Shown here one piece after another: positions 2,905 through 20,000 of a stretch of 20,000 nt of DNA; the stretch's first letter is position 1, and every line of letters starts with the position of its first letter. Both the position numbers and the translations under genes were made by a program. The notes beneath the pieces were generated by a model. The model was not told where the DNA came from and made no database searches. It was given only the letters and a program-made list of their open reading frames with translations. The DNA comes from Psammoneis japonica (lineage: Eukaryota), in contig QPGO01000147.1 of assembly GCA_008632985.1 (NCBI GenBank), positions 182,707-202,706 on the forward strand, read 5' to 3'.

Positions 2905-3147
2905 TGTGATTTTCTCTTTTAATCGACACAACGAGATGACGAGAAAAGGCAAAAGGTTCATGCGTCTCGCTCGAAGGCAACAACAACACTGGCGCATCTC
3001 ATCGGCACTCGTGCGGTGGAGAATCCAGCCGCAGTTCTTTAGATTCGCTCGATCCAGATTCGGTTGACGATGCGCAATCAACGTCGCATTTGTCACATTT
3101 AAGAACATTGGGAAAGACACACAACTTCGTCGTTCGGCCCGTGAACT
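2905..3147 (+). repeat. Dispersed direct repeat, copy 1 (possible degenerate coding segment)
   Basis: Shares long matches with 6955-7291, e.g. atgcgtctcgctcgaagg, tgcggtggagaatccagcc, cagattcggttgacgatgcgcaatcaacgtcgc and aacttcgtcgttcggcc. Confidence 0.9.
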
Positions 3148-4567: not shown

Positions 4568-6294
4568 TTACAAATCCGGATCGGGATCCTCCTCCAAGTA
4601 GGAATCAATCGTCTGTCTCTCGCTCCCATCCACACATTGAATGTCGTAGTACGCCACGAGATCATCATCAAAGTAGACATTTACAACTTTGGCCATTACA
4701 CGAGTGTTGTTGCGGCAGTAAAGCACGTCCTGGCCCTTCGTGTACGTTGAAATAGGAGTTTTCGGCGCAGGAGTGAGATGTGAATCGACGGCCTCTCTCT
4801 CTTCCCCATCAGGCATACGGACAGCATAGGTCGGGTAGAAGTCCTCGTGGGTGATAATTCTAACGACGACGGCAGGAGTGGCCTCTTGCCAACTTCGAGC
4901 CTTGTGAATCACTTTGTCACCCACCGAAAACTTTGGAGGAATCTCCAAGAAAACAAGCTCTCCTCCAGGTTCTTGCACTGGATTGGCATAATTCACTGAG
5001 CAAGGGGGGTAGCAGACAGAGTAGTGCCGAACTGTGTTGCCGTCATAGATGATTTCGTCGATTTCAGCTGGAATGGTTTTGTCGAAGAACCGATACTTGA
5101 ACGTCACCTTGTCCCCTACCGAATATAACTTTGGCTGGAGCACCTCGGAACAAGGCCCCATGACAGGGTCTTCTTTACATTTTGGATTCAAAAGCTCCGT
5201 GTCTCCTTCAGATGCTACCGAATACAACTTTGGCTGGGGCGCCTCGAAACAAGCTTCCTCGACAGTGTCTTCTTCTTCCTTTGGATTACACGGCTCGGTG
5301 TCTCCTTCAAATACCGCCGAATGCAACTTTGGGTGGGGCACCTCAAAAGGCTCCGCGTCTCCTTCAGATACTGCCGACTGTAACTTTGGCTGGGGCACGT
5401 TGTCTTTTTCTGCTTCCGATTCGACCGACGGTGGAGAGTTGTTCGTTGGAACCGGCTCGTGAAAGGCGCCACCATCGCAACCAGCATCGTTAACAGGGGT
5501 GAACCGATACTTCCTAGGGATTGACGTGGGCGGCGGAACTTCGATCGGCGGAACTTCGATCGGCGGAACTTTGATGTTGTTGAGTTTTTTTGTCCTCCAT
5601 TTGACCGACAGTGGAGAGTCCTTGTAGATAGGAACCGGATCGCGAGAGTCGCTACTGTTGCAACCAATGTCGTGAGTAGAGCTGAACTGGCACTTTGGAG
5701 CACTCGGCTTGGGAGGCAAAGCTTTGAAGATGTCTTTTTCTGATTTCATTTCGACCGCCGGTGGGGGTTTGTACATTTGAACTGGTTCGCGAATTGTGCT
5801 ACTGTTGCAACCAACACCGCGAGCAGGGCTGAGCTGGTGCTTCAGAGGGCTCGGCTTGGGAGGCAAAAGGTTGATCTTTTCTTTTTCTGACACCGGCTCA
5901 AGAAAAGCAATACTGTGCAATCAATGCCGTGAATAGGGCTGAAAGCAGGAAAAGGAACAGAAGGAATGCGACGTGAGAAACAAATGTTGTCGAACAGGCA
6001 GTACAAACAACGAGCGCAATAGAGAACTTACTGCAGAAATGGCTCATTGTCTTCAAAGGTCGAATCTGTAGTCCAACCCTCGTCGTCATAATGCGCCTGA
6101 GCCCGCTCCTCAAAGACAAGGTAGAGATAGATAAGACATACAGCCGCGAATAACCAGACGTTGACTGTCCTCAAAAAGAGAAACACGAGGAACCAGCAAA
6201 CCGCGACAAATGGGCTGAACTGATCAGGATCCATGATTCGGTCATAGGTACCAAAGAGAAACAAGGCGTTCAAGAAGAGGAAAGTGTACAACAT
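4568..6294 (-). CDS. Two-exon protein: N-terminal hydrophobic helices, Pro-rich internal repeats and three C-terminal Tudor/SH3-like beta-barrel modules
   Basis: Exon 6294-6032 (MLYTFLFLNALFLFG...) joins exon 5912-4568 in frame through a phase-2 intron at 6031-5913 (GTAAGT...TTGCACAG). Three modules start YSVGDKVTF, FSVGDKVIH and YTKGQDVLY; the last two contain YAVRMPDGEERE and YYDIQCVDGSERQT. The true start may lie further upstream. Confidence 0.8.
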
Positions 6295-6954
6295 GGTGAT
6301 ATTGTCGATGCGATACTTTACTTTCTTGCCAGAACTGCGATTGTGAGCCGAAGAAAGAGCGTGGGAAAGTGCGTGCTTGCATATTTCGGATTTTCGCGTG
6401 TAGGCAATCGTGTCCGCGAAGTGCAGAGTTGGTTTTGACACAATTTAAACGGTACTGGGTTTGATCCAAGTAATCATCTCGAATCCAAACTCGGAATACC
6501 GCTACAATCTTCAGCGCCATGGCCACAGCCTTTTTCATTTCCTCGTTTGCTTCTGACGACTGACGACTTCGCCAAAAGTCTCTGTGATGCAATAAATCTT
6601 ATTCGTGCTTTCCGTTGACACGCACATGACTGTTAATTATATATTTATTGGGGCTGTTGATTAGCTTCAAGCTGCGGCTGTGACGATCGCTGATGTTATT
6701 CGCCATCACCATCACACATACACCATGAGCGAATGCGCGACACTTTGCGGCTCCGATCCGAACTCTCTTTATGTCTGTATTTTCTGAGATAGCCTACATC
6801 AATCCTGCAAGTGACTCGTGGAAGTTCCATGCCGATACCAGGAACTCGTGCGCTTGATACATTGGTTTCGAGTATGCAAGAGGCTCCAGAACCATCCCGA
6901 TCAGGTGGAGATCAGCTTCCAGTCGAAAGAATGATCAAGTCTGCAGCAGACCCC

Positions 6955-7291
6955 GTCATTTTTCTCTTTTTATCGATACAACGAGACGATGGGCAACTGC
7001 TTCGGTTTGTCCATGAGCCGTTGTTTTCGTGCAAGCAATTGATTGCAGTCATTTGGTTGGTGGAAACAAGTCTATGATGCGGAGAAAATGCAATAGGTTT
7101 ATGCGTCTCGCTCGAAGGTGACAAGAATAACACTGGCGTATCCCAACGGTATTCCTGCGGTGGAGAATCCAGCCATAGTCCCTTAGATGCGCTCGATGCA
7201 GATTCGGTTGACGATGCGCAATCAACGTCGCGTTTGTCACATCTAAGAACATTGAGGGAAAAGAGATAACTTCGTCGTTCGGCCGGTGAAC
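6955..7291 (+). repeat. Dispersed direct repeat, copy 2, with an internal insertion relative to copy 1
   Basis: 6955-6993 matches ~2905-2943 (ttttctcttttxatcgayacaacgaga) and ~7080-7291 matches ~2940-3147. Confidence 0.9.
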
Positions 7292-8287: not shown

Positions 8288-9539
8288 TCACGGTATTGAG
8301 GTGAGGATCGGCTCCAAATCTATCTCTTCACCCTCATCGTCGTCCTCCACATCGGGAGGAGTGTCTTGCTGTGGGTTTCTGTGGATGGTGCGTTAGCGGT
8401 TAAAAAAGTGTGAGCAAGAAGCTGTGTATCATACCTAAAATAAATGAAAAGACTTACCGCATCATCTCTCTCAACAACGCCATGGCATTGTTGCGCTCTC
8501 CCGCCCAAGTTTGCATGCAGCGCTCCTGACAAGCGCGATCTTTCCTTGCACTGCTCGCCAGCTCTGACAGGGTTTTAATTGCAAGCATGCGCTCCTCCAT
8601 GGTATTATTATGCTCTCCCGCCCAAGTTTGGATGGAGCGCTCCTGACTTCCTGCCCAATCTTGAAAAGAGCGCTCCTGACTATCTAGCCATTCGCTAAAG
8701 GAGCGCTGTTGAGCATCTTGCCAATCACGAAAGGAGCGCTCCTGATGAGCGCGGTCAAGAACCATACGATCGATAAGATTATGAACACTCTGCCGGCCAC
8801 GAGGGTCGTGACGTGGCGTCCCAAACCTTCCCTCAAAAGCTGACTTGTGAAACTTGTCGATAAGAAAGTCGTTGGAAGGCAAGTAAATGCCGCGACCATC
8901 TTGCTTCCCCCTGAAGAAGCGTTCCACCAATATCTTGAGGAAATTCTTGCCCGATTTGTAGTCAGACTTCAAATCGGAGTTATCGACTAAGATTGTCTGT
9001 GCGTTGTTCGCAAGCAAATAAAGGTAGACATCCGCAAAGCGGGAGGCGGGGCAGAGGATGTAGTCAGCTTCGTATTGCTGGCCTGAGTGCCTGTACATTA
9101 AGATACGAGGGTCGTTAGTCTTGACGTGAAAGGCCACATAGTCTGAGTTGGTGTCCGTGAACACACTGAGCTTGGGTAAAACTTTGTGTCGAAAAGAATA
9201 GCACCAAGCCTTTCGGGCCTCTGCACTGCCAGTGTTCATGTGCTCGTCATACATGGTCGCGTTGTCATTCCACCAATACCCCTTGAGAATGTCCGTCTTA
9301 TCATAATCATCCTTTGGTAAGAGAGTATACTTATCCGTTTGGGGGATGGCGTTGGTCAAATGACAATAAAACTCGTCGGACAAAAGATAGCGTCGATCGG
9401 CTGGAGCGAGGCTTTCAACGGCACGGTTCAGGTCTTGTCTCATTGTCTCGAGAGCCTTGTCGCCCCAAACAAGGCCCATACGTTCAAGGCGACTCCAGAG
9501 TCGAGGATCCAACACAGATTGGGAGGGATTCGAACTCAT
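8288..9539 (-). CDS. Two-exon hypothetical protein (~390 aa) with C-terminal 11-aa QERSF..W repeats and an acidic tail
   Basis: Long ORF from ATG 9539. Intron 8457-8379 has a GTAAGT donor, GCTAAC branch site and CCACAG acceptor, and continues in frame into RNPQQDTPPDVEDDDEGEEIDLEPILTSIP* ending at 8288. Confidence 0.85.
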
Positions 9540-9809
9540 AGTATCGAGTAAACAACAACAGCAAAAATGAGCACGGCGAGAACGGCGGTGCCTTTTTTGT
9601 GTGAATGAAATGCAACCTCCGCGCCAGCCGCCAGCGCGCGGTGCGTGACAGCGCCTTTTTGCAAAAAGTATCCACGACTCGGTAGGGCGGAGTCACCGTA
9701 GAAATCACGTAGTAAGGGGGCTAAATTCTTCGCAAAATTCTGTGAGTCTATTCGTCGACCGTTTTCGCTCTAGCGGTCGCAGGTCTCCACGGTCATCCAA
9801 AAATCTCAA

Positions 9810-11760
9810 GACCAGCACCTGCTGTGCTGGTTGGCACTGGCATGAGCAAAACACAAGGCAGTTTTGGACAACAAGTTTCAGAGGAAAAAATGTAGCTTGC
9901 ACATTAAAGATGAGGGGGTGCACATGATGACAGAACTCATCAGACAATCTTGAGGCAAAAAGAAGGGCAGCTGACCTCATGATGAATTTCAGATGTGCCA
10001 GCCACAGTGCCTCAAGTTCACGACAATGGCATTTTTCACATGCAAGAAGCAATGTGAAGGGTTGCTTCCCATCACTTGACTGACCTCATCACAGGAGCAA
10101 GTGCAGTCAACAACCCTGGATCAAGAGGCACAGAAGCGTGCTGACTGCTGCGCTGAAAGTGCAAGACACTGAAAGTGTGGTTCCTTGAAAGCCTGCAGTT
10201 GGCCACAGAAGTTCCACACAAGTGTGTCATGACCCAGCTGGCTGGGTGGCACAAACGCTGGTGAGCAGCACCACAAAGAATGTGGCCATTGTTGTGCAGA
10301 GGCTCAAGCATTGCACGCTTCAATGTCTTGTGCCAGCACAAGCTGTGCACAAAATGGTCTCACAATTTTGACAAGACAGGGCTTGTTTGTCACCACCCAA
10401 GTGCCCAGACATTGTTTCTGCATGAATCAGTTGGTGGCACAGCTGTCCACTCCTCAGCCAGAACTTTCTTTAAAGCCTTGTGCCCCCGAAGTGGGTGCCT
10501 GTGCAAGCTGCTTGCTCTCCTGTGGGCTTCCTGTCTGAAACTCAACGAGTCTTTGGACTTGGCCCCCCAGCTGCTGCTTTCTCAATGTGGCGCAAGCCTT
10601 GTGTTCATGTGCCACCCTCCACTCTCTCCTCACACAGCTCTTGTTGGCTTGGCCCCACTCATCTTCTTTGAAAAGAGTGCCCTCCTGTTCATTGCATGGG
10701 CAATGCCTTGCTTCAACCTGGGCTTCTCCTTCTTGGCAAACATTGCTTCTCTCAGAGCTTTGACATGCACATGGACCATGGTGCTGTCTTGTGCACAACT
10801 TCTTGCCACTCGGCACTGCTTCTCTCAGCATTTTTCACCAGAGCTTTGATGTGCTGCTGCTGCCACTCACAAAAGAGCATGCTTGTGAGCAGATTGCTGC
10901 TGCAAATTGTGCTGGAAGAGTTTGCTTTGCAGTGAACTGGCAAACTCAGCTTTTGCAGCAAAAAGAGCTGGGCTTGCAACAACCTCCTGCTCAAGCTGGG
11001 CAAGCTGGGCTTGCAAAGACAAAGAACATCTGCTCTGGCTTTTTCAAAAGTGCTTTGACTCCTTGTGTTGGAAACTTTCAAGAGTGCAGGGGAGGCTGGA
11101 TGACAGTGCTGGTTGTTTTTAGCCCGCTTCTGCCCACACTTCAATTGCCAACAGGTGAAGCTGTCTGAGCTTGCTGGCTTTGCCAGAGCTGCAACACAGC
11201 ATGAGTGTGGGGTCATCTGGCTGGGTGCTGGACAACTGGACAAGTTGATTGTCATCTGTGAAGCCCAGCCAGCTCAGATTGGCTGGGCTGCTTGTGCGTC
11301 ACTTTGAAAAAGACAGCTGCAGCCTTTGCGTCTGTGCAGCTGCAGCACCTTCAATCTGTGGAGGAGAGCCAGCCCCTGACAGCCTCAGCTGCCTCCCAAA
11401 ACTTGCCAGCACATCAGGAAAACTCTTTGGCAACCATGGTGGTGTGGAGCCACACCGGCCCCAGCTAAAATGAGACATTTCAAATTTGGGAGTGTTGAAA
11501 GAGCCACCTGGCAACTCGGAAATCACAGCGCCACAGTTTCTCAAGCACAGGGGCTCAAGCTTTGCACCGGTGTGGCGAGAAAAAAACTCTGAGAGGCAGA
11601 CATTTTCCAGCTTTTCACAACCATCCAAACTCCAGTCCCTCAAGCTTGTCAATTGTCCAATCTCTTGTGTCAGGATGACTGCACCGTGGCCACTCCCTTG
11701 CGTGCTGAAAGGTGCAAGAAGCTCGCCGGACACCATTGTTTTTGTCCCATCTCTGGTGCG
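9810..11760 (-). pseudogene. Hypermutated LRR-protein gene relic, copy 1 (left arm of inverted repeat)
   Basis: ORF 11299-11781 reads ILTQEIGQLTSLRDWSLDGCEKLENVCL...KLEPLCLRNC...ISELPG, matching an LRR consensus. Many stops and frameshifts downstream, near-absence of CpG and TpA, and colinear homology with the reverse complement of 14790-16740. Confidence 0.75.
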
Positions 11761-12041
11761 TGCCCCAATCAACTGCCACACACCTCACACCGCCGTCGCG
11801 TCGTACCGGTGCCACACCAGGCATCTACAGTACGTACAGCATTTATCCGTGCGTGCTCTCCGTTTGACATTTCGGGAAGTGTCGAACCTACTTGCTTGTG
11901 AGGTAGGTTCGCACCAATGGACAGCGGATAAAATTTACTTAAGATCTTTCCTTAATTGACATGACATACTAGTGAATGACTTATGGTGTCCATCACGGGA
12001 AGTGACCACAATTTCGGTCACAGTGCGCCAAAAACAAGAAC

Positions 12042-12980
12042 ATGACAGGCACTAACACCAATTCACAAGTCTCATTATTTTCACCCAAACAAGCCACAAG
12101 GTTAGAAAAAGCCGTCATGAGGGCTTTCGACGCTCTCCTGCTGTTTCTGGTTTTTATATGTTTAATCGACCTGATCAAGGCAGAGCAATTTCGTACGCTT
12201 AGACGAAAAGCAAGAGATGGTGCTGGCAAACAAAAGGCAGATTATCGATTTGGTGTCGTTGTTGAAAAAGTGGCATTTGAAGAATACTATGCTAGTAGTA
12301 CAGACGTCTCGGAGAGTGATGAGGAGGAGGACGAGGAGCCTCTCAAGGTTGTCTATGTTGAACTAAATCAAGAACGGTTGACTTGCATGGAACGATCTAT
12401 TGCCGAAAACATGCCACGCATTGCCGAAGCATATCTACTCCAAGATTACGTAACAAGTCAATCCAATCAAGTTGTTGATAAACATCGAAATGCTTGGGGT
12501 GAAGTGCGAAAAGTAATTTACAAACCAAAGCTAAGGAATGGGGCGGGTTTACCTTTTGAGTACGGTGTGTCAGAGGCGAAATACGAAAACAAGAAAATTG
12601 ACGATTTATCCAATGACAAAACCATCCTTGTTCAACAAGACACTCTAGGGGTGGTCAAAAGGAAAAGAGACCATAATGGAAACAGAATACGTGCCCTTGG
12701 GAGCAAAAAGGCCCGTGATGGAACTGGTCAAGCACCGCAACTCGATCAAGTCGACGTGGAATCTACCCCATCGATACCACCAAAACGAAAACTAAGGAGA
12801 AGACGAAGAAAAAGGAGACTTGTCGTGCAACGTTGGAAGGGCTTTTTTCGAATCAAGGCAGCCTGTCACTTATGTAATCCCGATGACCTCGACAGAAGAC
12901 TACTCAAACAGGATGCTACTCTATCGTCAGGAAGCGGAACGTTCCGCCGTCCCTCAAACCTTTCAACAGTGGATGAATGA
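12042..12980 (+). CDS. Hypothetical protein (312 aa) with one N-terminal hydrophobic segment, an acidic patch and a basic NLS-like tract
   Basis: Uninterrupted ATG-started ORF with normal dinucleotide content: AFDALLLFLVFICLIDLI, ESDEEEDEE, PPKRKLRRRRRKRR. No family recognised. Confidence 0.7.
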   Translation: MTGTNTNSQVSLFSPKQATRLEKAVMRAFDALLLFLVFICLIDLIKAEQFRTLRRKARDGAGKQKADYRFGVVVEKVAFEEYYASSTDVSESDEEEDEEPLKVVYVELNQERLTCMERSIAENMPRIAEAYLLQDYVTSQSNQVVDKHRNAWGEVRKVIYKPKLRNGAGLPFEYGVSEAKYENKKIDDLSNDKTILVQQDTLGVVKRKRDHNGNRIRALGSKKARDGTGQAPQLDQVDVESTPSIPPKRKLRRRRRKRRLVVQRWKGFFRIKAACHLCNPDDLDRRLLKQDATLSSGSGTFRRPSNLSTVDE

Positions 12981-13223
12981 GTTTTTGGCCGAGCAAATGA
13001 TTATCGATTGCAACGAGTATGATACTAAAAAGACCATGTTTTGGTTTGTAAAGTAAGCGTCGGTAATAATGAAATACGGGTTAATAGAGTGCAAACCAAT
13101 AGTACCTCTAGCACTTTGTTCTGTATATACTAGTAGTAGAACTTTTCATTGGTAATGCTAGCTAGTAGTAGAGCCATGCCGGTTCATAATTTTTTAATCT
13201 ACTAATAGCTTTCGTTCTACACT

Positions 13224-14484
13224 CTAATCCAACAATTCCACAATGGGTGGCTGGAGCAATCGATTGACTTCCAAGGGTTGCCACGCTAAGCCTTCATTGT
13301 TTTCATTGCGACTCAAAATGGACGTTTGCGATGGATACTGACATTGATCCTCGGATGCGTCACCAAGGACCATGAGTTTTGACCAAAAGGAAAAGCTTTG
13401 CGACAGCTCATCGTCGTCCTCCTCCACTTCTTTGCTCATGTACCAAAGAATTGTCTAACGGGAAAATATTAGAAAAGAGTGAGATGACACTCGACGAGAG
13501 AGCGGTTGATTTACAAGACATGTTGTTGCTCCAATGTCACAACTCACTTCATTTGAAAATCTTTTTGCAATTATACACTGCAACAGCCGTCCGAATGCTT
13601 GCCGATTTGTGGAAGAAGCTTCAACGTTATTGGTAGTATGATCCTCTTGAGTAGTAGTAGTAGTATCTGCAGTATACCGTTGTGGCGGCATGCGTGGCTT
13701 GGTAAAGACAAATCCATTCCCATTGGTTCCCGTACAATAATAAATTCCATTGTATTCCTCATCCCCGGCATGCGTCACCAAGACGCGTCGTCTCAAACCC
13801 AACATGGGTACAGGCACAACCGCCGTTGTTGTTGGTTGTACTGTTTGCGCAGTCGTTATAATAGTTCCTTCCATTTGTTCCTTGGCTCTTAATAGCTGAA
13901 AGACGTTTGTAATTTGTCGGTCTTGTTGTAATTGGTATGTTTGTTGTGTGGCGGACGTTCGTGCCAAGCTATGAAAGCGACTGCACGTTAACCCCACTTG
14001 CATCAAGCACTGACACGACAAGAATTCAAATATCCTCAAAACGACATCGTCGACAATGAGCAAGTGTTGTAAGAAACTGGAACTTTGGGATGCCTTTTTC
14101 GTAACGTCGTTTTGTTGTTGTTGTTGTTGACTATTCAGGAGATCGCAGTGTGCGTTTGCCAGTTGCTCAAAGGGCGCAAACAAAATTCGAATAGGCTGGA
14201 GTCTGCTTCAAGGCAATCACATCGTTGCGTGGTATTTGCATGAGCCAATGACCGAACTTCTCCAACGAATCCGTATCAAACTGAGGAGAAGAGGAACGAC
14301 TTCGTTTCTGTGTATGCAAGGGGACGACTCGAGGATCCGAAGCAGAAGCAACGTCGCCATTCATGTTGTTGTTGTTATTTGTAGCGTGACCTGGCGATGA
14401 TGATGGTTCCTCCATGTGCTCGTCATACACTTCTGCTTCTTCTTCTTGACCTATTATTCGTTCTTGTTCTTGTGCTGCATTCAT
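13224..14484 (-). CDS. F-box domain protein with one intron and one apparent +1 frameshift
   Basis: F-box motif FLQHLLIVDDVVLRIFEFLSCQCLMQVGLTCSRFHSLA. A phase-0 intron at 13547-13455 (GTGAGT...CTAAT...GTTAG) joins in frame to TILWYMSKEVEE...VELLD*. The N-terminal ORF 14167-14484 joins only if one C is removed near 14173 (FVCA-FEQLANAH). Confidence 0.8.
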
Positions 14485-14789
14485 GCTACTCCCGTGCCGT
14501 TGTTGTTGCGGGTGTGTACGGTCCTCACTTTCTCTTTGTTGCAGTCATCTCTGTCACTGTCATCGAGAGATTTCAGATTTGGCCTCCACATCACACATGA
14601 CATTGCGCATGCGTTGAGTTTTTTCTACGCAAGCTCGTACCGGTACATAGCCGTCGTAGAAGACATTTTGTATTCAGTGTCACATTTTCTCTATTCAAAT
14701 AGTCCTAGAGAGTATAGGCGCGAGGTACGGTCGAGGCACACCCAGGTGTTCGTTCAGCGGTGACAACAAGTGGGTTCGAGTTGTCATGC

Positions 14790-16740
14790 TTGAGTCAGTC
14801 TGCGGCAGAGTGACCCTGCCACCAGAGATTGGACAATTGATGTGCTTGAAGGACTTGAGTTTCGATGGCTGTGAGAAAAGCTGGAAAACTGCTGCCTATC
14901 CAAGCTCTTTTTTCTCTCTTCTATGCAAAGCTTTGTGACCCCCTCTTGCATTTCAGAAACTGTGCTGTGATTTCCAAGTTGCCAGGTGGGCTCTTTTAAC
15001 CACCAAATTTGAAATGTGTGAGTTTGGTGTGGAGCAGCTCTGCCACGGCTGTTCTCAGGGGCCGGCTCTCCAGCTTGAGAGTGCTGCAGCTGTGCAGCAG
15101 GCACTCTGGGGCTTTGATGCCCTCTCTTGAAATGGTGCAAGCAGCTCAGCCAATCAGGGCTGGCTGGGCTTGACAGATGACAGTCAACTTGCCCAATTGC
15201 CACACACTGCCTGGAGCCAGATGACCCTGCACTCATGCCACATCACTTGCTGCGGCTCTGACAAAGCCAACAAGCTCAGACAGTCTTGCCTCTCAGCGGT
15301 TGAAGCAAACACAGAAGTGGTCCAAAGAAAAATCAACATTGCCAGCCTGCTCCAACTCCAAGTGAGGATGTGCACAGGCTCGATTCCCATCGCTGGCCCA
15401 TCTCTGCATTTGGCACAACAAACTCTTTCAAAATCATCTTTTTCCCAAATTGAACAAGGGTGAGCACACACAAGTCAGTGTGCCATGCTGCGCAGAGAAT
15501 CAAGCTCTTGTGTGGTGGATTGTGCACCACCTGGGTCTGGAACAGGAGTCAGACACATCCTTGAAGAGGCCAGGGACACTCTTTGTCTCTTTGCTGCTGC
15601 CAGCTTGCTTGGCTTGAGCAGCAGGTTGTTGCAAGCCATGCTCCTTCTGCTGCAAAGCTGGGTTTGCTGGTGCCTGCTGCAAAGCAACCTCTTCCATCAT
15701 CATTGGAGAGTTTTTTTGTGAGTGTGGCAGCAGCGGTGCACCAAAGCTCTGTTGCAAAGTGCTGAGGGGGGGGGGCAGGGTTGGGGTTGGCAACAACTGC
15801 GCACCTGTGGCTGGGGCAGCACCAAGAAGAAAAAAAAGCCCCAGATTGGAGCTGGGCATTGCCCTTGCAATGAGCGGGACACTCACTTTAGCAAATGATG
15901 TGAGCAAGACACCAAGCTGACAAGCTGTGTGAGGAGTGGAGGGCAGCACATTGTCACAAGGCTGCTGTCATTGCTGCTGACATCATGACCACAAAATCCA
16001 ACAATGGGGCTCATGCCATTGAGAAAGCAGCAGCTGGCACTGAGCCATCTGGTGAAGCCAATGCCAAGACAAAGGCCAATCTCAAGGACTCAGAAGGCTT
16101 TTGGACAGGAAGCCTGCAGGAAAGCAAGGGGCTTGCACAGGCACCCAAATTTGAGCACAAGGCTTAAAAGAAAGCTCTGGTTGAGGGGCAGAAAGCTGCA
16201 CTGTCATCATTTGGTGTGTGTGAGAACAGGGTCTGGGCACTTGGGTGGTGACAGACAAGTCCTGTGTTGTGAAAATTGTGCCATTCTTGAGACATGCACC
16301 AGAGCTTGAGGCAGCCCCAGTGCAGCAATGGCCACATTTTTTGTGGCGCTGTGCAGCTTTTGTGACAAGTGGAAGTTGGGTCATGATGGCACATCTGTGG
16401 AACTTCTGCAACTTCAGCATGGGCTTCTGTGCACTTTGCTGCCCCATCCTGGGTTGCCTGCTGCACTTGCTCCTGTGACGAGGTCAGGTGATGGAGAAGC
16501 AAGCCAGAGCATTGCTTCTTGCACATGAAGAATTGCTGTCACAAACTTGAAGCACCATGGCTGGCACATCTGGAGCTTGTTCTGAGATCAGCTGACCTTT
16601 TTGTCTCTCAGAATTTGATGAATTCTGTCATCATGTGTGCGCCCTCATCTCAAATGTGCAAGCCACAATTTTTCTCTGAAACTTGTCATTTAAAACTGCT
16701 CTCTGTTTTGCTTGTGCCAACCCCAAGCACAGCATGCAAT
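14790..16740 (+). pseudogene. Hypermutated LRR-protein gene relic, copy 2 (right arm of inverted repeat)
   Basis: From ~14809 it reads VTLPPEIGQLMCLKDLSFDGCEK (LRR). Shared blocks with copy 1 include ccacctggcaact(c/t)ggaaatcacagc, agccagatgaccc, aagctcagacag, gtctgggcacttgggtggtgaca and ctgcacttgctcctgtga. Confidence 0.75.
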
Positions 16741-17619
16741 GCACACAACAGCTGCCTTTTTCTTTTGTTGTCTCACATTTGTGCCTGGGTGCAGCATTTG
16801 CACAATCCCCTGGCTCATTTGCAAACCAAGTGGTCTGCAGGAGCCCATTCTGAGTCATTGGGTGGCCCTTTTCTCACAGAGCCAGTTGACTTCATTGCAC
16901 ACCCACTTCTCACGGCAGGCTTTTTCGTTCCACATGCTGAGCCTTTTTTCCAAACAGCATCTCTTGCTCGAGCAAAGGCATGCACAGCTGCTCTTGACAA
17001 TTTCTGCACGCTGCTTGCACCCACATTTGAGCACCAGCAAATCTTCTGTGGGAACATTTAGCCCCAGAAAAACTTTGTGAAATGTTGTGAGAGCTGCAGA
17101 GCCAATGCTTTGCATCAGAACATCAGTGCTGTTGGCTCTTTTTGCAGCTCAACAGCCTGTCCAGGAGCATCATGCAAGCGCACACAAAGCAATGTCAAAA
17201 ATGCACCAGCAACAGCATCCTGGACCTTTTCAGGTGACCTTTTTTGTCCAACCTTTTTTGGCACATGCCCAAGCTTCTGCCACAAAGACCTCTCTGCAGC
17301 CAATCATGAAACACAGCATCTGCAACCATTTGTGTCAAACAGGTGCAATCTTGGAAATCTTGTCATCTTGGCACCTGTGCTGACATGCACAATGGGTGCA
17401 CCACACTCAATGAGAAGTGGCAATTTTGAAAAATGCTTGTGCCCACTCTCAACTGGTGCATGAGCAACATTTTTGCAATTTCTGCTCTCTGCTGTCTGCT
17501 CCCCTGTTGGCTGAACAGCCACAGAGAGCAGGCAGAGCAACATTCTGTGGTGGCAGCCAGCTGGGCTGGCATTTTTGCACTTGAGGTGGCAGTGTTGCAG
17601 CAAAACTGTGCAGGAATGG

Positions 17620-17870
17620 GGGGGTCCAAGCACTCAGGCAGCAACAGATGAGTCTGGTGTTGCAGAGATTGTGAGAAAATTCTGCACACGCAACTTGCAT
17701 GTGCAAGACAGCAAGACACATGGAGCTTGAGTCCCTGTGTGACAATGGCTGCATTTGGCACTGTGCAGTTCTGCGCAGCCGCTGCTTCATGCAAGATGTG
17801 TCAACTGCATGATGGCCAGTTGGGTCATGCCTTGCCTGTGTGGAACTCCCATGGGCAAAAGCTGCTGCAC
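17620..17870 (+). pseudogene. Third, partial and more diverged copy of the same relic
   Basis: gcttgagtccctgtgtgacaatggctgcatt (17725-17755) aligns with gcttgagcctctgcacaacaatggccacatt (copy 1, 10309-10279). ASWVMPCLCGT aligns with ASWVMTHLCGT. Full extent not determined. Confidence 0.7.
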
Positions 17871-18178
17871 AGGTTTGGACCAAATCTGTGGGCAAAGGCT
17901 TGAGCCAAAGTGGCAGTGCTGGCCACAGGCAGGTGGCCCAGAGCAACAAGTCTGTCCATCTTGCACACAAGAGATGTGCTGTGGGACACAGCTGGGGTGC
18001 CACTTGGAAGATTCAAAAGGTCAGCTTCAAATCCCAAACATCATTTGCAGCCTGGGACAAAGACAAATCACTGACCATTTGTCTCACAATTCATCTGTCT
18101 CCTCAGTTGCATCTCTGTCTTTTCCTGTGCTCATCAGCAGAAGAAGGCATGACCAACACCCTTCCAGCAGACAAGATG

Positions 18179-20000
18179 TCACAGTTGATGAGAGATTGCG
18201 ATGCGAGGTTTGTTGTCCAACAAAGTTGTCTGGTCAATTGTTGAGTGTGCCAATGCCATGGGCTTGAGCAAGAGCCACACGCAGCTGCCACAGTTGCTGC
18301 ACGGTGTTGGAAGAAGTTGTGTGAGGCACATGATCCATCCAGTTTCCAGGGCATCTCTTGATGATTGCCTGGACAGGATGTGCAACACAGAAGCTGGCAC
18401 ACTGTCAGAAGCAGAGAAGATGCTCTGCACTTTGCCGCACCTGAACTTTGCCTCTGATCCCATCAGCACACAAATTGTCTCCTCCCTGACAGCACTGACA
18501 TGGAGCGCCGGACTTGCAAATCCTTCTGTTTTCCACTGTCTGCTCTCAAACACATCCACTCGGAGAAGCCCATGCTCCCATGCCAAGGAATCCACCCAGT
18601 CCAAATTGTGAGCATCCAGGACTTTTGGATGGCATGCCACTGGGAGTGTCACTTGGGGTGGGCTGCGGCTTGGCATGCTGTTTGGAGCATGACTGAAGGT
18701 GTGACTGGAACTGGGGCTCGTGCTTGGGAATTTGCTGGGAGCTGGGCTGGTTGGACGGAGCAAACCCTGCACTTGGAGCCATGCTGGGAGAAGTGCTTGG
18801 TGCTGAACTCAAACTGGGAGCTTGAGATGGCATCTTTGCAGGGTTCAAGGCTTGATTTTGTTGTCACTTCCACCATGGTGCCTTGATGGTGCATGCATTG
18901 GCAATGCAAACGTCAATTTCAAATGGAGTCGCTGCATTTGCAACATCACCACCCAACAGCATTGCCTCAATTTGATCCAGAAAACTGGATGTTGTCTCTG
19001 CAAATGGATCATCCCTTGTTAAAATGTGATCAGCTTTGGTGACATTTGCAGAGCTGCTGTGCCAATGTTTTCAATTTCCATGACTGAACCCACCATGTGA
19101 AGGCATTGCTTGGTTTGAGTCGTTGTCAGGATCACCACTCACCATCGCAGCCCTTGAGTGTCAGGCTGCCAAGTTGGTTGTTCAGCATTGGGTTGCAAGC
19201 ATCTGTCACAAACTGCACTTGCTGGTGCACAGAGTCTACATTGGCAGAAATTCAATGAAACAAATGACAACACTTGGGGTGTTGGCTGTTTTAATCTTCT
19301 TGCTGAGACTTTTGGTTTTGTTGAACTTTGCTCCATTTGGTCCAGTGCATGTGACAGGGCACCTGGTGGCATGACATCAGAGAAATCTTGACGTTCACAG
19401 TGTTTGCCTTGAAAATTCACAGCTTCTTGATGCAAAATTGCCACCCGCATTTGAAGGCCAAGTTTGGATGTCACCTTGGCATTCTGGATTGGGTTCTGTT
19501 TTCATCTTGGGCTTCGCATCTCAAATCAACCTGCACAAGCATTAAATGTGAGTTGGCACTGAATGGTTTTCAAAACAAGAGAACAAGAGCCAAAGAAGTC
19601 TGAGTGCACCTTTGTGTTGCAGAACTCTTGTGTGGTTGGTTCTTGACTTGGGGCGTTGCTGGGAACCGGGCTGCTGCTTGGTGATGACAAAGGCGCCGCA
19701 CTCGGCACTGGACTTGCACTCGGAATCAAGGATGGGCTGCTGCCAGGTTCTTGGCTCTTGCCTGTTGTTGCTGATGGCTGGCTGCTTGGAGCAGGGCTGG
19801 CACCAGGTGATCTGCTTGGCACATTGCTCAGAGCTGGACCACCACATGGAGCTGCACTGGGTGAATCACTCGGTGCCGGACTTGAACTTGGAGGCAGCAT
19901 GGTGTGCATTGGCACATTGCTTGGTGCTGGACTTGCACTGGGGGCATCACTGGGCATGGATCTTGGAGCAGAACTTGCACTGGGTGATCCACTTGGTGCA
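18179..20000 (-). pseudogene. Decayed gene for a diatom-type Pro/Ser-rich (PSxxPS) extracellular protein; continues beyond the window end
   Basis: Two blocks of PSxxPS repeats (19526-20000: PSDAPSASPAPSNVP...PSNAPSQEPT; ~18640-18830: PSQAPSLSSAPSTSPSMAPS, then PTSPAPSKFPSTSPS in another frame) are separated by non-repetitive segments with stops and frameshifts. Same CpG/TpA loss. Confidence 0.7.

What the first reader, a model, noticed from the sequence alone, without database searches (positions are those of the whole stretch)
9775..11830. Mutated domain coincides almost exactly with the limits of homology
Seen: the CG/TA-poor character starts at ~9810, where similarity to the other arm ends (tgctgtgct, ~9819 vs ~16735). 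It stops at ~11780-11800, close to where similarity ends on the inner side. The right domain likewise starts at ~14770. The transitions take about 100 bp or less (e.g. ...cacacctcacac|cgccgtcgcgtcgtaccgg). Inference: targeting is homology- or repeat-guided with little spreading, as in RIP. The domain beyond 16740 would then need homologues elsewhere in the genome.
Basis: partly seen in the sequence, partly recalled or inferred. Interest (0 to 1): 0.7.

Follow-up and report, generated by a model that had tools for sequence, protein, structure and literature searches.

The report
Diatom repeat purged of CG and TA
Two old, inverted, decayed copies of a gene in a diatom-like genome have had almost every CG and TA step rewritten to TG or CA inside sharply bounded blocks, which points to a repeat-silencing mutation process with a chemistry not described before.

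Summary
In 9791-11803 and 14783-20000 (window end), CG o/e is 0.12-0.17, TA o/e 0.02-0.05 and TG/CA o/e 1.7-2.0, with G+C unchanged. The rest of the window has CG about 1.0 and TA about 0.62. The blocks switch on and off within 30-110 bp of the ends of a diverged inverted repeat (9820-11690 against 16734-14795, 78% identity, 73 indels).

The repeat unit is a decayed gene with leucine-rich-repeat remnants, not a recognisable transposon.

Aligned TG-versus-CA "flips" number 41, against 4-7 for every other double-transition class. Residual TA is also very low. Together these show that the purge acted in place after the copies split. Simulations suggest much of it was already present when the copy was made, so the coincidence of boundaries is partly inherited.

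The signature is not RIP chemistry: there is no TA gain and no AT drift, and transitions run in both directions. CpG loss fits methyl-cytosine decay. TpA loss is even stronger and has no known mechanism.

Whether targeting is by homology could not be tested, because no genome is held. Short repeats in the window are not purged. Eight literature searches found no description of a joint CG+TA purge. I rate this a new variant of repeat-associated hypermutation; interest is high.

The parts
9791..11803 (.). Left CG/TA-purged block
   Evidence: Change points 9790/9794 and 11788/11791. CG o/e 0.17, TA o/e 0.04, TG 1.85, CA 1.72. A run contig spans 8711-10865, across the outer boundary (record 2).
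9820..11690 (-). Left arm: a truncated, decayed copy of the repeat unit, with sense on the - strand
   Evidence: blastn and global alignment to 16734-14795. 1274 of 1628 aligned columns are identical; 252 transitions, 102 transversions. 73 indels, 23 of them multiples of 3, and no codon phase in the substitutions.
11302..11784 (-). Open frame with leucine-rich-repeat remnants (motif ...EIGQLTSL..L.L.GCEKLE...)
   Evidence: phmmer against 1.84 billion representatives: 7 proteins at E<=0.001, best 4.3e-07, with 3-12 matched stretches each. 5 of the 6 hits scanned carry LRR Pfam families. tblastn places the similarity at 11257-11673 on the - strand. Pfam itself gives no hit on this frame.
11692..11803 (.). 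Tail beyond the homology that is TA-free but CG-normal
   Evidence: 0 TA, 9 CG and 21 TG+CA in 112 bp. Only 0.65% of background windows of that length have 0 TA. No homology to the other arm even when transitions are ignored.
11804..14782 (.). Unique spacer, not purged. Holds ORF 12006-12980 (+) and the F-box ORFs 13455-14207 and 14167-14544 (-)
   Evidence: CG o/e 1.01, TA o/e 0.65. ORFs. F-box-like Pfam hit at E 4.7e-06. A run contig spans 11996-14858, across the right inner boundary (record 4).
14783..20000 (+). Right CG/TA-purged block, which runs off the window end
   Evidence: Change point 14777/14782. CG o/e 0.12-0.16, TA o/e 0.02-0.05. A 716-nt run contig matches 18807-19522 with 0 differences (record 7).
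14795..16734 (+). Right arm, homologous to the left arm in inverted orientation
   Evidence: (I1-I11). The frame from 14762 reads ...LPPEIGQLMCLKDLSFDGCEK....
15346..15545 (.). About 190 bp present in the right arm only. It includes an 88-bp piece (15367-15454) that also occurs in other sequence contexts
   Evidence: Gap block in the arm alignment. Loose ends in 6 contigs on each side at 15367 and 15454 (table 7). The stretch has 3 CG and 0 TA (position lists).
16735..20000 (+). Purged sequence with no partner in the window apart from one short internal copy
   Evidence: Self-blast and purine/pyrimidine-collapsed blast. Diverged run contigs lie on 18617-19241 at about 88% likeness (records 6 and 13).
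17584..17772 (+). Third copy of a roughly 180-bp segment of the arms (matches 16225-16360 and 10278-10448)
   Evidence: Purine/pyrimidine-collapsed blast: 10278-10448 against 17756-17584 at 89%, and 16228-16280 against 17621-17673 at 98%.

Best explanation
The window comes from a pennate-diatom-like nuclear genome. It holds two old, inverted, decayed copies of one unit whose inner end once encoded leucine-rich repeats. One copy is a 1.9-kb fragment (9820-11690, - strand). The other is at least 5.2 kb (14795-20000+, + strand).

Both copies lie in sharply bounded blocks where a local mutation process converts the two self-complementary pyrimidine-purine steps, CpG and TpA, into TpG or CpA, on either strand with equal chance. 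G+C is therefore preserved.

Shown:
- The process acted in place after the copies split.
- It stops within about 30-110 bp of the copies' ends.
- It spares the unique 3.1-kb spacer and all other DNA of the window.

Inferred:
- The blocks are a heritably silenced (methylated or heterochromatic) domain that was seeded on duplicated DNA.
- The CpG half is deamination of 5-methylcytosine. From the steady-state counts, this runs at about 12 times the ordinary transition rate per site.
- The TpA half needs a second activity, at about 50 times the ordinary rate, confined to the same domain. Candidates are enzymatic modification of thymine at TpA (5-hydroxymethyl- or 5-formyluracil mispairing with G, giving T>C) or deamination of adenine at TpA (giving A>G).
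- Much of the purge probably predates the duplication that made the left copy, so part of the boundary coincidence is inherited. The confinement since then is real.
For: 1. Signature and sharp limits.
2. Applying only CG>TG/CA and TA>TG/CA to the window's own background gives TG/CA o/e of 1.93-1.96, against 1.82-1.86 observed, with G+C barely moved.
3. No tri- or tetranucleotide deviates beyond |z| 3.6 once dinucleotides are accounted for, so the rule is a dinucleotide rule.
4. Of 73 adjacent double transitions between the arms, 41 are TG<->CA. The other six observed classes have 4-7 each, and CG<->TA has 0. Independence would give 38 double transitions in all.
5. In simulation, no purge after the split gives 2 flips and about 28 CG plus 28 TA per copy. 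Observed: 41 flips, 17.5 CG and 5.5 TA.
6. Residual CG aligns with TG/CA in the other arm in 15 cases, and residual TA with TG in 4.
7. The copies evolve neutrally: 23 of 73 indels are multiples of 3, and substitutions show no codon phase (P = 0.81).
8. Background DNA, including intergenic stretches, keeps CG at about 1.0 and TA at about 0.62, so this is not the genome's general mutation bias.
9. Run contigs bridge both checked boundaries, and one reproduces 716 nt of the block exactly.
10. Steady-state estimate: 67 CG and 16 TA against about 1630 TG+CA.
11. Context from papers (passages read). Diatoms methylate transposable elements through DNMT5a, and many carry DNMT4, a relative of the fungal RIP enzyme RID, of unknown function (PMC9998398). 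In dinoflagellates 5hmU marks repeats, and 1980s work cited there reported TA and TC contexts (PMC11572971, PMC11071213).
Against: - This is one window only. No genome is held, so it is unknown whether purged blocks are always repeats or whether all long repeats are purged.
- No methylation or base-modification data exist for this DNA.
- The thymine or adenine chemistry is pure inference. The base-resolution 5hmU study found no sequence preference in another dinoflagellate (PMC11071213), and no such modification is known to me in diatoms.
- The simulations fit imperfectly. Observed transitions (252) lie between the pre-purged model (182 +/- 14) and the post-duplication model (303 +/- 15), so the timing is unresolved.
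- CG and TA limits differ at the left inner edge. This may mean two processes with different domains, or a copy end that differs from the homology end.
- The run used as a check may be the sample the window was assembled from, and its library type is not on record.
Confidence: 0.55

Rival explanations
1. A true RIP-like defence. A homology search (for example with a DNMT4/RID-type enzyme during the sexual cycle) detects duplicated DNA above a length threshold and mutates exactly the paired stretch, with CG and TA as target sites instead of CpA.
For: The blocks coincide with duplicated copies within 15-110 bp, and the unique spacer between two linked copies is untouched. Short repeats are not purged (216 bp at 86% identity; tandem units of 99-330 bp), as a length threshold would predict. 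Diverged extra copies of the part beyond 16740 exist in the run. Diatom DNMT4 groups with RID (PMC9998398, passages). A review notes that RIP-type use of methylation may exist outside fungi (PMC9246332, passage).
Against: The arms are 78% identical with an indel about every 25 bp, yet TA is still excluded: 5.5 residual per arm against 28 expected if purging had stopped at the split. The flip count fits a pre-purged ancestor better than purging triggered by this duplication. The TA-free tail runs 110 bp past the homology. A stretch at 6.0-6.9 kb on which up to 12 contigs lie is not purged. Flips show no strand-wise runs (23 runs against 19.5 +/- 2.8). A cytosine enzyme does not explain T>C or A>G at TpA.
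Confidence: 0.22
2. Inherited composition only. The unit acquired its CG/TA-free make-up elsewhere or earlier (for example in a donor locus, or during an RNA or cDNA stage with editing), and the blocks merely mark where such DNA was inserted. Nothing acts at this locus.
For: The boundaries equal the copy ends, the left copy is a truncated version of the longer right one, and the flip count is compatible with an ancestor that was already purged.
Against: Without a continuing local purge, the divergence seen (252 transitions, 102 transversions in 1628 columns) should have produced about 28 CG and 28 TA per arm and only about 2 TG/CA flips. Observed: 17.5 CG, 5.5 TA and 41 flips. There are no retroelement or viral domains: 0 of 63 frames reach a Pfam cut-off. 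The signature is strand-symmetric, unlike APOBEC- or ADAR-type editing of one strand.
Confidence: 0.1
3. Selection rather than mutation. The blocks are functional (for example a long non-coding or hairpin RNA source) and avoid CG and TA (UA) to escape a nuclease, a methylation reader or a restriction-like system.
For: Avoidance is very strict, with up to 1961 bp free of TA, and it applies on both strands.
Against: The copies decay freely: 73 indels, 22% divergence and no conserved frame. No Rfam family matches. The arms pair at only 78%, which is poor for a hairpin. Selection would have to act on every dinucleotide of more than 7 kb of otherwise unconstrained sequence.
Confidence: 0.06
4. Artefact. 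Base-calling, polishing or mis-assembly at modified bases, or a chimeric join with foreign DNA, created the CG/TA-free stretches.
For: Heavily modified DNA can cause systematic base-calling errors (recalled, not tested). Some run contigs differ from the window by a few letters and gaps (records 2-5).
Against: Contigs assembled from a public run reproduce the blocks. One matches 716 nt with 0 differences, and others bridge the boundaries at 9.8 kb and 14.8 kb. The two arms differ by indels and transversions like old paralogues. Both sides of the left block are ordinary diatom-like DNA.
Confidence: 0.04

Closest known systems
Repeat-induced point mutation (RIP) of Neurospora and other Ascomycota
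   Same: It hits duplicated DNA, uses only transitions, turns copies into pseudogenes, ends close to the limits of the duplicated stretch and spares nearby unique DNA. Short repeats escape.
   Different: RIP is C>T only, mostly at CpA, so it creates TpA and drives sequences AT-rich. Here TpA is erased (o/e 0.02-0.05), transitions run in both directions and G+C stays at about 0.5. Here the copies are old and only 78% alike, yet still kept free of TA. The organism is a diatom, not a fungus. A 2022 review lists RIP as fungal (PMC9246332, passages read).
TpCpG hypermutation of repeats in Pucciniomycotina (Horns et al. 2012, PMC3318451, passages read)
   Same: Repeat-associated C>T at CpG, which enriches TG/CA.
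   Different: That process needs a 5' T and has no reported effect on TpA. Here all CpG contexts are depleted. Residual CG is only mildly poorer in 5' T: 16 of 67, against 237 of 723 in the background. TpA is lost as well.
Decay of methylated CpG in silenced repeats (5-methylcytosine deamination). Diatom transposable-element methylation by DNMT5a (PMC9998398, passages read)
   Same: It explains CG o/e of about 0.15 with a TG/CA gain confined to a silenced block with sharp edges. It also explains better survival of CG in G+C-rich contexts.
   Different: It cannot remove TpA, which is depleted more strongly than CpG here. Methylation of these blocks has not been measured.
5-hydroxymethyluracil marking of repeats in dinoflagellates (PMC11572971; PMC11071213, passages read)
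   Same: A thymine modification placed on repeats in another lineage of the same supergroup. Older work cited there reported a preference for TA and TC contexts. This would offer a route to T>C at TpA.
   Different: It has not been reported in diatoms (no paper found). The base-resolution study saw no context preference, and no mutational purge of TpA has been linked to it. This is an analogy only.
APOBEC/ADAR editing of retroelements before integration (PMC4866542, search listing only)
   Same: Clustered transitions confined to an element.
   Different: That editing is strand-asymmetric, is not tied to self-complementary CG/TA steps, and happens before insertion. Here the signature is strand-symmetric, continues in place, and the unit shows no retroelement domain.

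Membership tests
RIP (Ascomycota type) | Only C:G>T:A transitions, preferentially at CpA, giving TpA excess and AT enrichment | tested here: not met
   TA o/e 0.02-0.05 and G+C about 0.5. C/T and A/G differences between the arms are equal (127 and 125).
RIP (Ascomycota type) | Confined to duplicated DNA above a length and identity threshold | tested here: inconclusive
   The blocks match the duplicated copies within 15-110 bp, and short repeats are spared. However, the arms are now only 78% alike, the part beyond 16740 has only run-contig hints of partners, and no genome is held.
RIP (Ascomycota type) | Depends on a RID/DNMT4-type enzyme and acts before meiosis | not testable with these tools
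   No genome for this window. Diatom DNMT4 exists in other species and its function is unknown (PMC9998398).
Pucciniomycotina TpCpG hypermutation | C>T specifically at TpCpG in repeats | tested here: inconclusive
   CG is lost in all contexts. Residual CG has a 5' T in 16 of 67 cases, against 237 of 723 in the background. That is a weak trend, not a specificity.
Methylated-CpG decay of silenced repeats | CG>TG/CA depletion within a methylated block | tested here: met
   CG o/e 0.12-0.17 with a TG/CA gain. The sequence consequence is met.
Methylated-CpG decay of silenced repeats | 5-methylcytosine present on the block | not testable with these tools
   No methylation data are available.
Methylated-CpG decay of silenced repeats | Other dinucleotides are left at background levels | tested here: not met
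   TA falls from o/e 0.62 to 0.02-0.05, so CpG decay alone does not describe the blocks.
Retroelement editing (APOBEC/ADAR) before integration | Strand-asymmetric editing of a retroelement, fixed at insertion | tested here: not met
   TG and CA are equally enriched. 41 flips arose in place. 0 of 63 frames reach a Pfam cut-off.
Leucine-rich-repeat protein gene (origin of the unit) | LRR consensus repeats recognisable in translation | tested here: inconclusive
   phmmer finds 7 hits at E<=0.001 (best 4.3e-07), and 5 of the 6 scanned are LRR proteins. tblastn places the similarity at 11257-11673 on the - strand. But Pfam gives no hit on the frame itself, and no hit falls on the right arm.

The most novel reading that the evidence does not exclude
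Diatoms possess a DNA-level genome defence not described before. Duplicated or silenced DNA is marked and then actively mutated at both self-complementary pyrimidine-purine steps: C>T at CpG, and T>C or A>G at TpA. This needs a second, unknown base-modifying or deaminating activity on thymine or adenine. It destroys coding capacity while keeping base composition neutral. It may be coupled to the RID-like DNMT4 whose function in diatoms is unknown.
Probability: 0.3. Interest if true: 0.9.

Novelty: new variant of a known kind. Interest (0 to 1): 0.76.

Why it matters
Repeat-targeted hypermutation is known only from fungi, and always as cytosine-to-thymine change.

A sharply bounded block in a diatom in which both CpG and TpA are erased would extend mutational genome defence to a major algal lineage. 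It would also imply a mutagenic activity on T or A at TpA that no known pathway provides. It would give the orphan diatom DNMT4 (a RID relative) a testable role.

Practically, such blocks are invisible to G+C-based or RIP-index scans. They also make pseudogenes with long false open frames, because TAA and TAG are absent, which can mislead gene callers.

Tried and rejected
The genome-wide change-point and copy-number test could not be run.
- Pfam on all 63 stop-to-stop frames of 70 aa or more in the blocks: 0 reach a curated cut-off. There were 5 sub-threshold chance-level rows at E 0.004-0.067. Four frames re-scanned at E<=10 gave nothing.
- Word-indexed protein search with the longest frame (18182-18808, - strand, 209 aa): 0 of 370 candidates at E<=0.001. 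By my own estimate, frames of about 200 aa are expected by chance when only TGA can stop translation.
- Rfam (0 matches), tRNA scan (0) and tandem-repeat scan (6 arrays, none in the blocks).
- Extension of homology past the arm ends with transitions ignored: none.
- Strand-wise clustering of flips: none.
- Higher-order word avoidance such as GATC: nothing beyond |z| 3.6.
- Earlier findings of this scan: nothing on this genome or on this sequence. The only dinucleotide notes concern phages with the opposite bias (CA/TG avoided) and do not bear on this case.
- Sequencing runs: no RNA holder is listed. All three runs are contigs from one sample and one study, so depth is not copy number. Run X3 laid nothing. 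X2 gave no cover for 10006-12673, 14675-17342 and some other bins.
- Literature: eight full-text searches found no description of a joint CG+TA purge, or of RIP-like mutation in diatoms. Subscription journals and bioRxiv supplements were not searchable.
- General genome-wide mutation bias, considered and rejected: the background keeps CG at about 1.0.
- GC-biased gene conversion, considered and rejected: AA/TT are not depleted and G+C is barely raised.
- Coding constraint, considered and rejected.
Full report
WHAT IS THERE

Composition. The window has an even G+C of about 0.41-0.55 but two blocks with an extreme dinucleotide make-up. In 200-bp windows, the 36 windows from 9801-11800 and 14801-20000 hold 0-9 CG and 0-3 TA. 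The other 64 windows hold 3-21 CG and 2-27 TA.

Observed/expected values:

| Region | CG | TA | TG | CA |
|---|---|---|---|---|
| Left block, 9811-11790 | 0.17 | 0.04 | 1.85 | 1.72 |
| Right arm, 14790-16740 | 0.12 | 0.05 | 1.79 | 1.79 |
| 16741-20000 | 0.16 | 0.02 | 1.80 | 2.00 |
| Rest of the window | 1.01-1.03 | 0.62-0.65 | 1.1-1.2 | 1.1-1.2 |

The right block runs off the window end. The longest TA-free run is 1961 bp in the right block, against 145 bp in 9.8 kb of background.

As an outside control, I fetched 61 diatom-like metagenome loci around relatives of a flanking gene (329 kb). None of their 2956 windows of 600 bp has (CG+TA)/(all pyrimidine-purine steps) below 0.19. In this window, 64 of 195 windows are below 0.15.

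The repeat. Eleven inverted seed pairs, blastn and a transition-tolerant global alignment define arms at 9820-11690 and 16734-14795.
- 1274 of 1628 aligned columns are identical (78%). There are 252 transitions and 102 transversions.
- There are 73 indels, including about 190 bp present only in the right arm (15346-15545).
- When purines and pyrimidines are collapsed, so that transitions cannot hide homology, no similarity continues past either end. The inner score was 19 against shuffles of 18.9 +/- 3.0. The outer score was 17 against 18.1 +/- 2.6. A control inside the arms scored 75.
- The same collapsed search finds one more copy of a roughly 180-bp arm segment at 17584-17772.

Boundaries. 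Likelihood change points for the CG+TA share:

| Boundary | Change point | 2-lnL support | Homology limit |
|---|---|---|---|
| Left outer | 9790/9794 | 9780-9813 | 9811-9820 |
| Left inner | 11788/11791 | 11680-11794 | about 11690 |
| Right inner | 14777/14782 | 14737-14820 | 14795 |

So two boundaries fit within 15-30 bp. At the left inner edge the two dinucleotides part company. By the CG-only change point (11512/11517), CG has returned about 170 bp inside the arm. TA stays absent for about 110 bp beyond the homology: 0 TA in 11692-11803, seen in only 0.65% of background windows of that length. That tail lies inside the open frame 11302-11784. It may therefore belong to the left copy and simply be missing from the right one.

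WHAT THE UNIT IS

The organism.
- The flanks carry an F-box ORF and a DUF3082 ORF.
- The nearest relatives of the DUF3082 protein are 45-64% identical. The 4 of 120 listed rows that name an organism all name diatoms: Cylindrotheca, Seminavis, Nitzschia and a cut name starting 'Synedro'.
- The atlas search agrees on haptophyte- or diatom-type eukaryotes.

The unit itself.
- None of the 63 frames of 70 aa or more in the blocks reaches a Pfam cut-off.
- The frame 11302-11784 (- strand) reads like leucine-rich repeats (...EIGQLTSL..L.L.GCEKLE...). The right arm reads the same motif on the + strand.
- phmmer against 1.84 billion representatives gives 7 hits at E<=0.001, best 4.3e-07, each with 3-12 matched stretches.
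- 5 of the 6 hits scanned are LRR proteins, of the NB-ARC-LRR, TIR-NB-LRR and Roc-COR-LRR types.
- tblastn with these hits lands on 11257-11673 on the - strand only.

So the unit is a decayed gene with LRR remnants that reads outward from the inner ends, not a recognisable transposon.

It is no longer under coding constraint. 23 of 73 indels are multiples of three, and substitutions show no codon phase (P = 0.81).

IS IT MUTATION, AND WHERE DID IT HAPPEN

The rule.
- Applying only CG>TG/CA and TA>TG/CA to the window's own background gives TG/CA o/e of 1.93-1.96, against 1.82-1.86 observed, and leaves G+C nearly unchanged.
- After dinucleotides are accounted for, no tri- or tetranucleotide is off by more than |z| 3.6. 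The rule is therefore a plain dinucleotide rule.

Evidence between the arms.
- 41 of 73 adjacent double transitions are TG opposite CA. The six other observed classes have 4-7 each, and CG opposite TA has none. A TG/CA flip is what two independent resolutions of one CG or TA site look like.
- Flips are spread evenly and show no strand-wise runs (23 runs against 19.5 +/- 2.8).
- Residual CG sits opposite TG/CA in 15 aligned cases, and residual TA opposite TG in 4.

Three histories simulated at the observed transversion level:

| History | Flips | Transitions | Residual CG / TA per copy |
|---|---|---|---|
| No purge after the split | 2 | 182 | about 28 / about 28 |
| Ancestor already purged, purge continuing | 38 +/- 6 | 182 +/- 14 | 0 / 0 |
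| Background-like ancestor, purged only after the duplication | 94 +/- 7 | 303 +/- 15 | 0 / 0 |
| Observed | 41 | 252 | 17.5 / 5.5 |

Two conclusions follow.
- The purge certainly worked in place after the split.
- The data sit nearer the pre-purged ancestor than the post-duplication model, but fit neither exactly.

The left copy was therefore probably already largely purged when it was made. Part of the boundary coincidence is then inherited rather than evidence for homology guidance.

Rates. From 67 CG and 16 TA against about 1630 TG+CA in the blocks, I estimate steady-state rates. Loss per site is about 12 times the ordinary transition rate for CG and about 50 times for TA. The CG figure is in the range I recall for methylated CpG in vertebrates (recalled, not from a call). 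The TA figure has no counterpart that I know of.

Survivors. Residual TA is mostly in T_TA_A contexts (5' T in 11 of 16, 3' A in 9 of 16). Residual CG is mostly in G+C-rich contexts.

IS IT REAL DNA

Contigs assembled from a public run of one sample give these checks:
- One bridges the left outer boundary (8711-10865).
- One bridges the right inner boundary (11996-14858).
- One reproduces 18807-19522 with 0 differences.

The library type is not on record, and the run may be the sample the window came from. This argues against a base-calling or chimera artefact but is not fully independent.

In the same laying, contigs only about 88% alike cover 18617-19241 (records 6 and 13). Summed contig depth over several bins beyond 16740 is 1.5-4 times the flat value of about 55 in the unique spacer. 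That is a hint, not a copy number, that the part without a partner in the window has diverged copies elsewhere.

Against a simple 'all repeats are hit' rule, several repeats in the window are not purged:
- The stretch at 6.0-6.9 kb, on which up to 12 contigs lie, keeps a normal make-up: CG+TA share 0.43.
- A 216-bp dispersed repeat at 86% identity keeps 19-20 CG per copy.
- Intragenic tandem repeats also keep normal CG and TA.

HOW IT MOST LIKELY WORKS

Shown: a block-limited, strand-symmetric conversion of CG and TA to TG/CA that persisted for a long time and spreads 110 bp or less.

Inferred:
- The blocks are a heritably silenced domain seeded on duplicated DNA.
- CpG loss is methyl-cytosine deamination. 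Diatoms methylate transposable elements via DNMT5a, and many species carry DNMT4, a relative of the RIP enzyme RID with unknown function (PMC9998398, passages read).
- TpA loss needs another activity in the same domain. There are two chemically plausible routes. One is thymine oxidation at TpA, with 5hmU or 5fU mispairing with G (the mispairing is recalled, not from a call). The other is adenine deamination at TpA.
- The only precedent for a thymine mark on repeats is in dinoflagellates. Old work cited there reported TA and TC contexts, but a base-resolution map saw no preference (PMC11572971, PMC11071213, passages read).

None of this chemistry was testable here.

COMPARISON AND NOVELTY

- The outcome resembles RIP: duplicated DNA, transitions only, pseudogenisation and tight limits. 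It fails RIP's defining spectrum, which is C>T at CpA with TpA gain and AT drift.
- It shares CpG targeting with the TpCpG hypermutation of rust and smut fungi (PMC3318451, passages read), but without the 5' T requirement and with TpA loss in addition.
- CpG decay of methylated repeats explains half of the signature.
- A 2022 review lists RIP as fungal and says similar systems 'may well have evolved' elsewhere (PMC9246332, passage read).
- Eight full-text searches found no report of a joint CG+TA purge, or of RIP-like mutation in diatoms.

I file it as a new variant of repeat-associated hypermutation. The TpA half is the truly unexplained part.

VERDICT

- Observation: confirmed.
The action in place and the small spread are shown. 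Guidance by homology and the RIP chemistry are not.
- Confidence in the best explanation: 0.55.
- Interest: 0.76.

Noticed in passing
window 2935-3146 and 7076-7291: A 216-bp dispersed direct repeat (86% identity; 15 transitions, 12 transversions) that keeps 19-20 CG per copy, so it is not purged. Run contigs show joints that skip the 4.2 kb between the copies (2949>7134) and joints that go back (7175>3123, 7239>3176). This suggests a structural variant or a different arrangement in part of the reads.
   Followed up: partly
window 6004-6900: Summed contig depth reaches 1414, against about 55 for single-copy DNA, with up to 12 contigs and many loose ends at 6450 and 6883. This is a short high-copy sequence with a normal CG/TA share (0.43). 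There is a weak LRR-like tblastn hit at 6800-6907 (+), E 0.005.
   Followed up: partly
window 15367-15454: An 88-bp piece inside the right-arm-only segment. Six contigs continue into unrelated sequence on each side, so it is a small repeated module. The flanks of the other copies also look rich in TG/CA (table 7).
   Followed up: no
window 10075 / 16500: One run contig (depth 99, about twice single copy) joins the two arms on opposite strands at homologous positions. This is either a collapse at shared exact words or a sign that the spacer exists in both orientations (table 5).
   Followed up: no
window 4568-5920 (-) and 8454-9692 (-): Two long open frames (450 and 412 aa) with internal repeats: 99-bp and 147-330-bp units in the first, and a 33-bp tandem array at 8634-8745 in the second. 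Neither has a Pfam family.
   Followed up: no
window 9811-11690 and 14795-20000: The few surviving TA steps sit mostly in T_TA_A contexts (5' T in 11 of 16, 3' A in 9 of 16). Surviving CG sits in G+C-rich contexts. Besides CG and TA, the blocks have GC o/e 1.41 and AT o/e 0.74, which the simple conversion model does not predict (1.09 and 0.90).
   Followed up: partly
window 19529-19999 (-) / 18743-19999: Degenerate 42-93-bp repeats give a Ser/Pro/Ala-rich frame on the - strand and a Leu/Gly/Ala-rich frame on the + strand within the purged block. Their origin is unknown.
   Followed up: no
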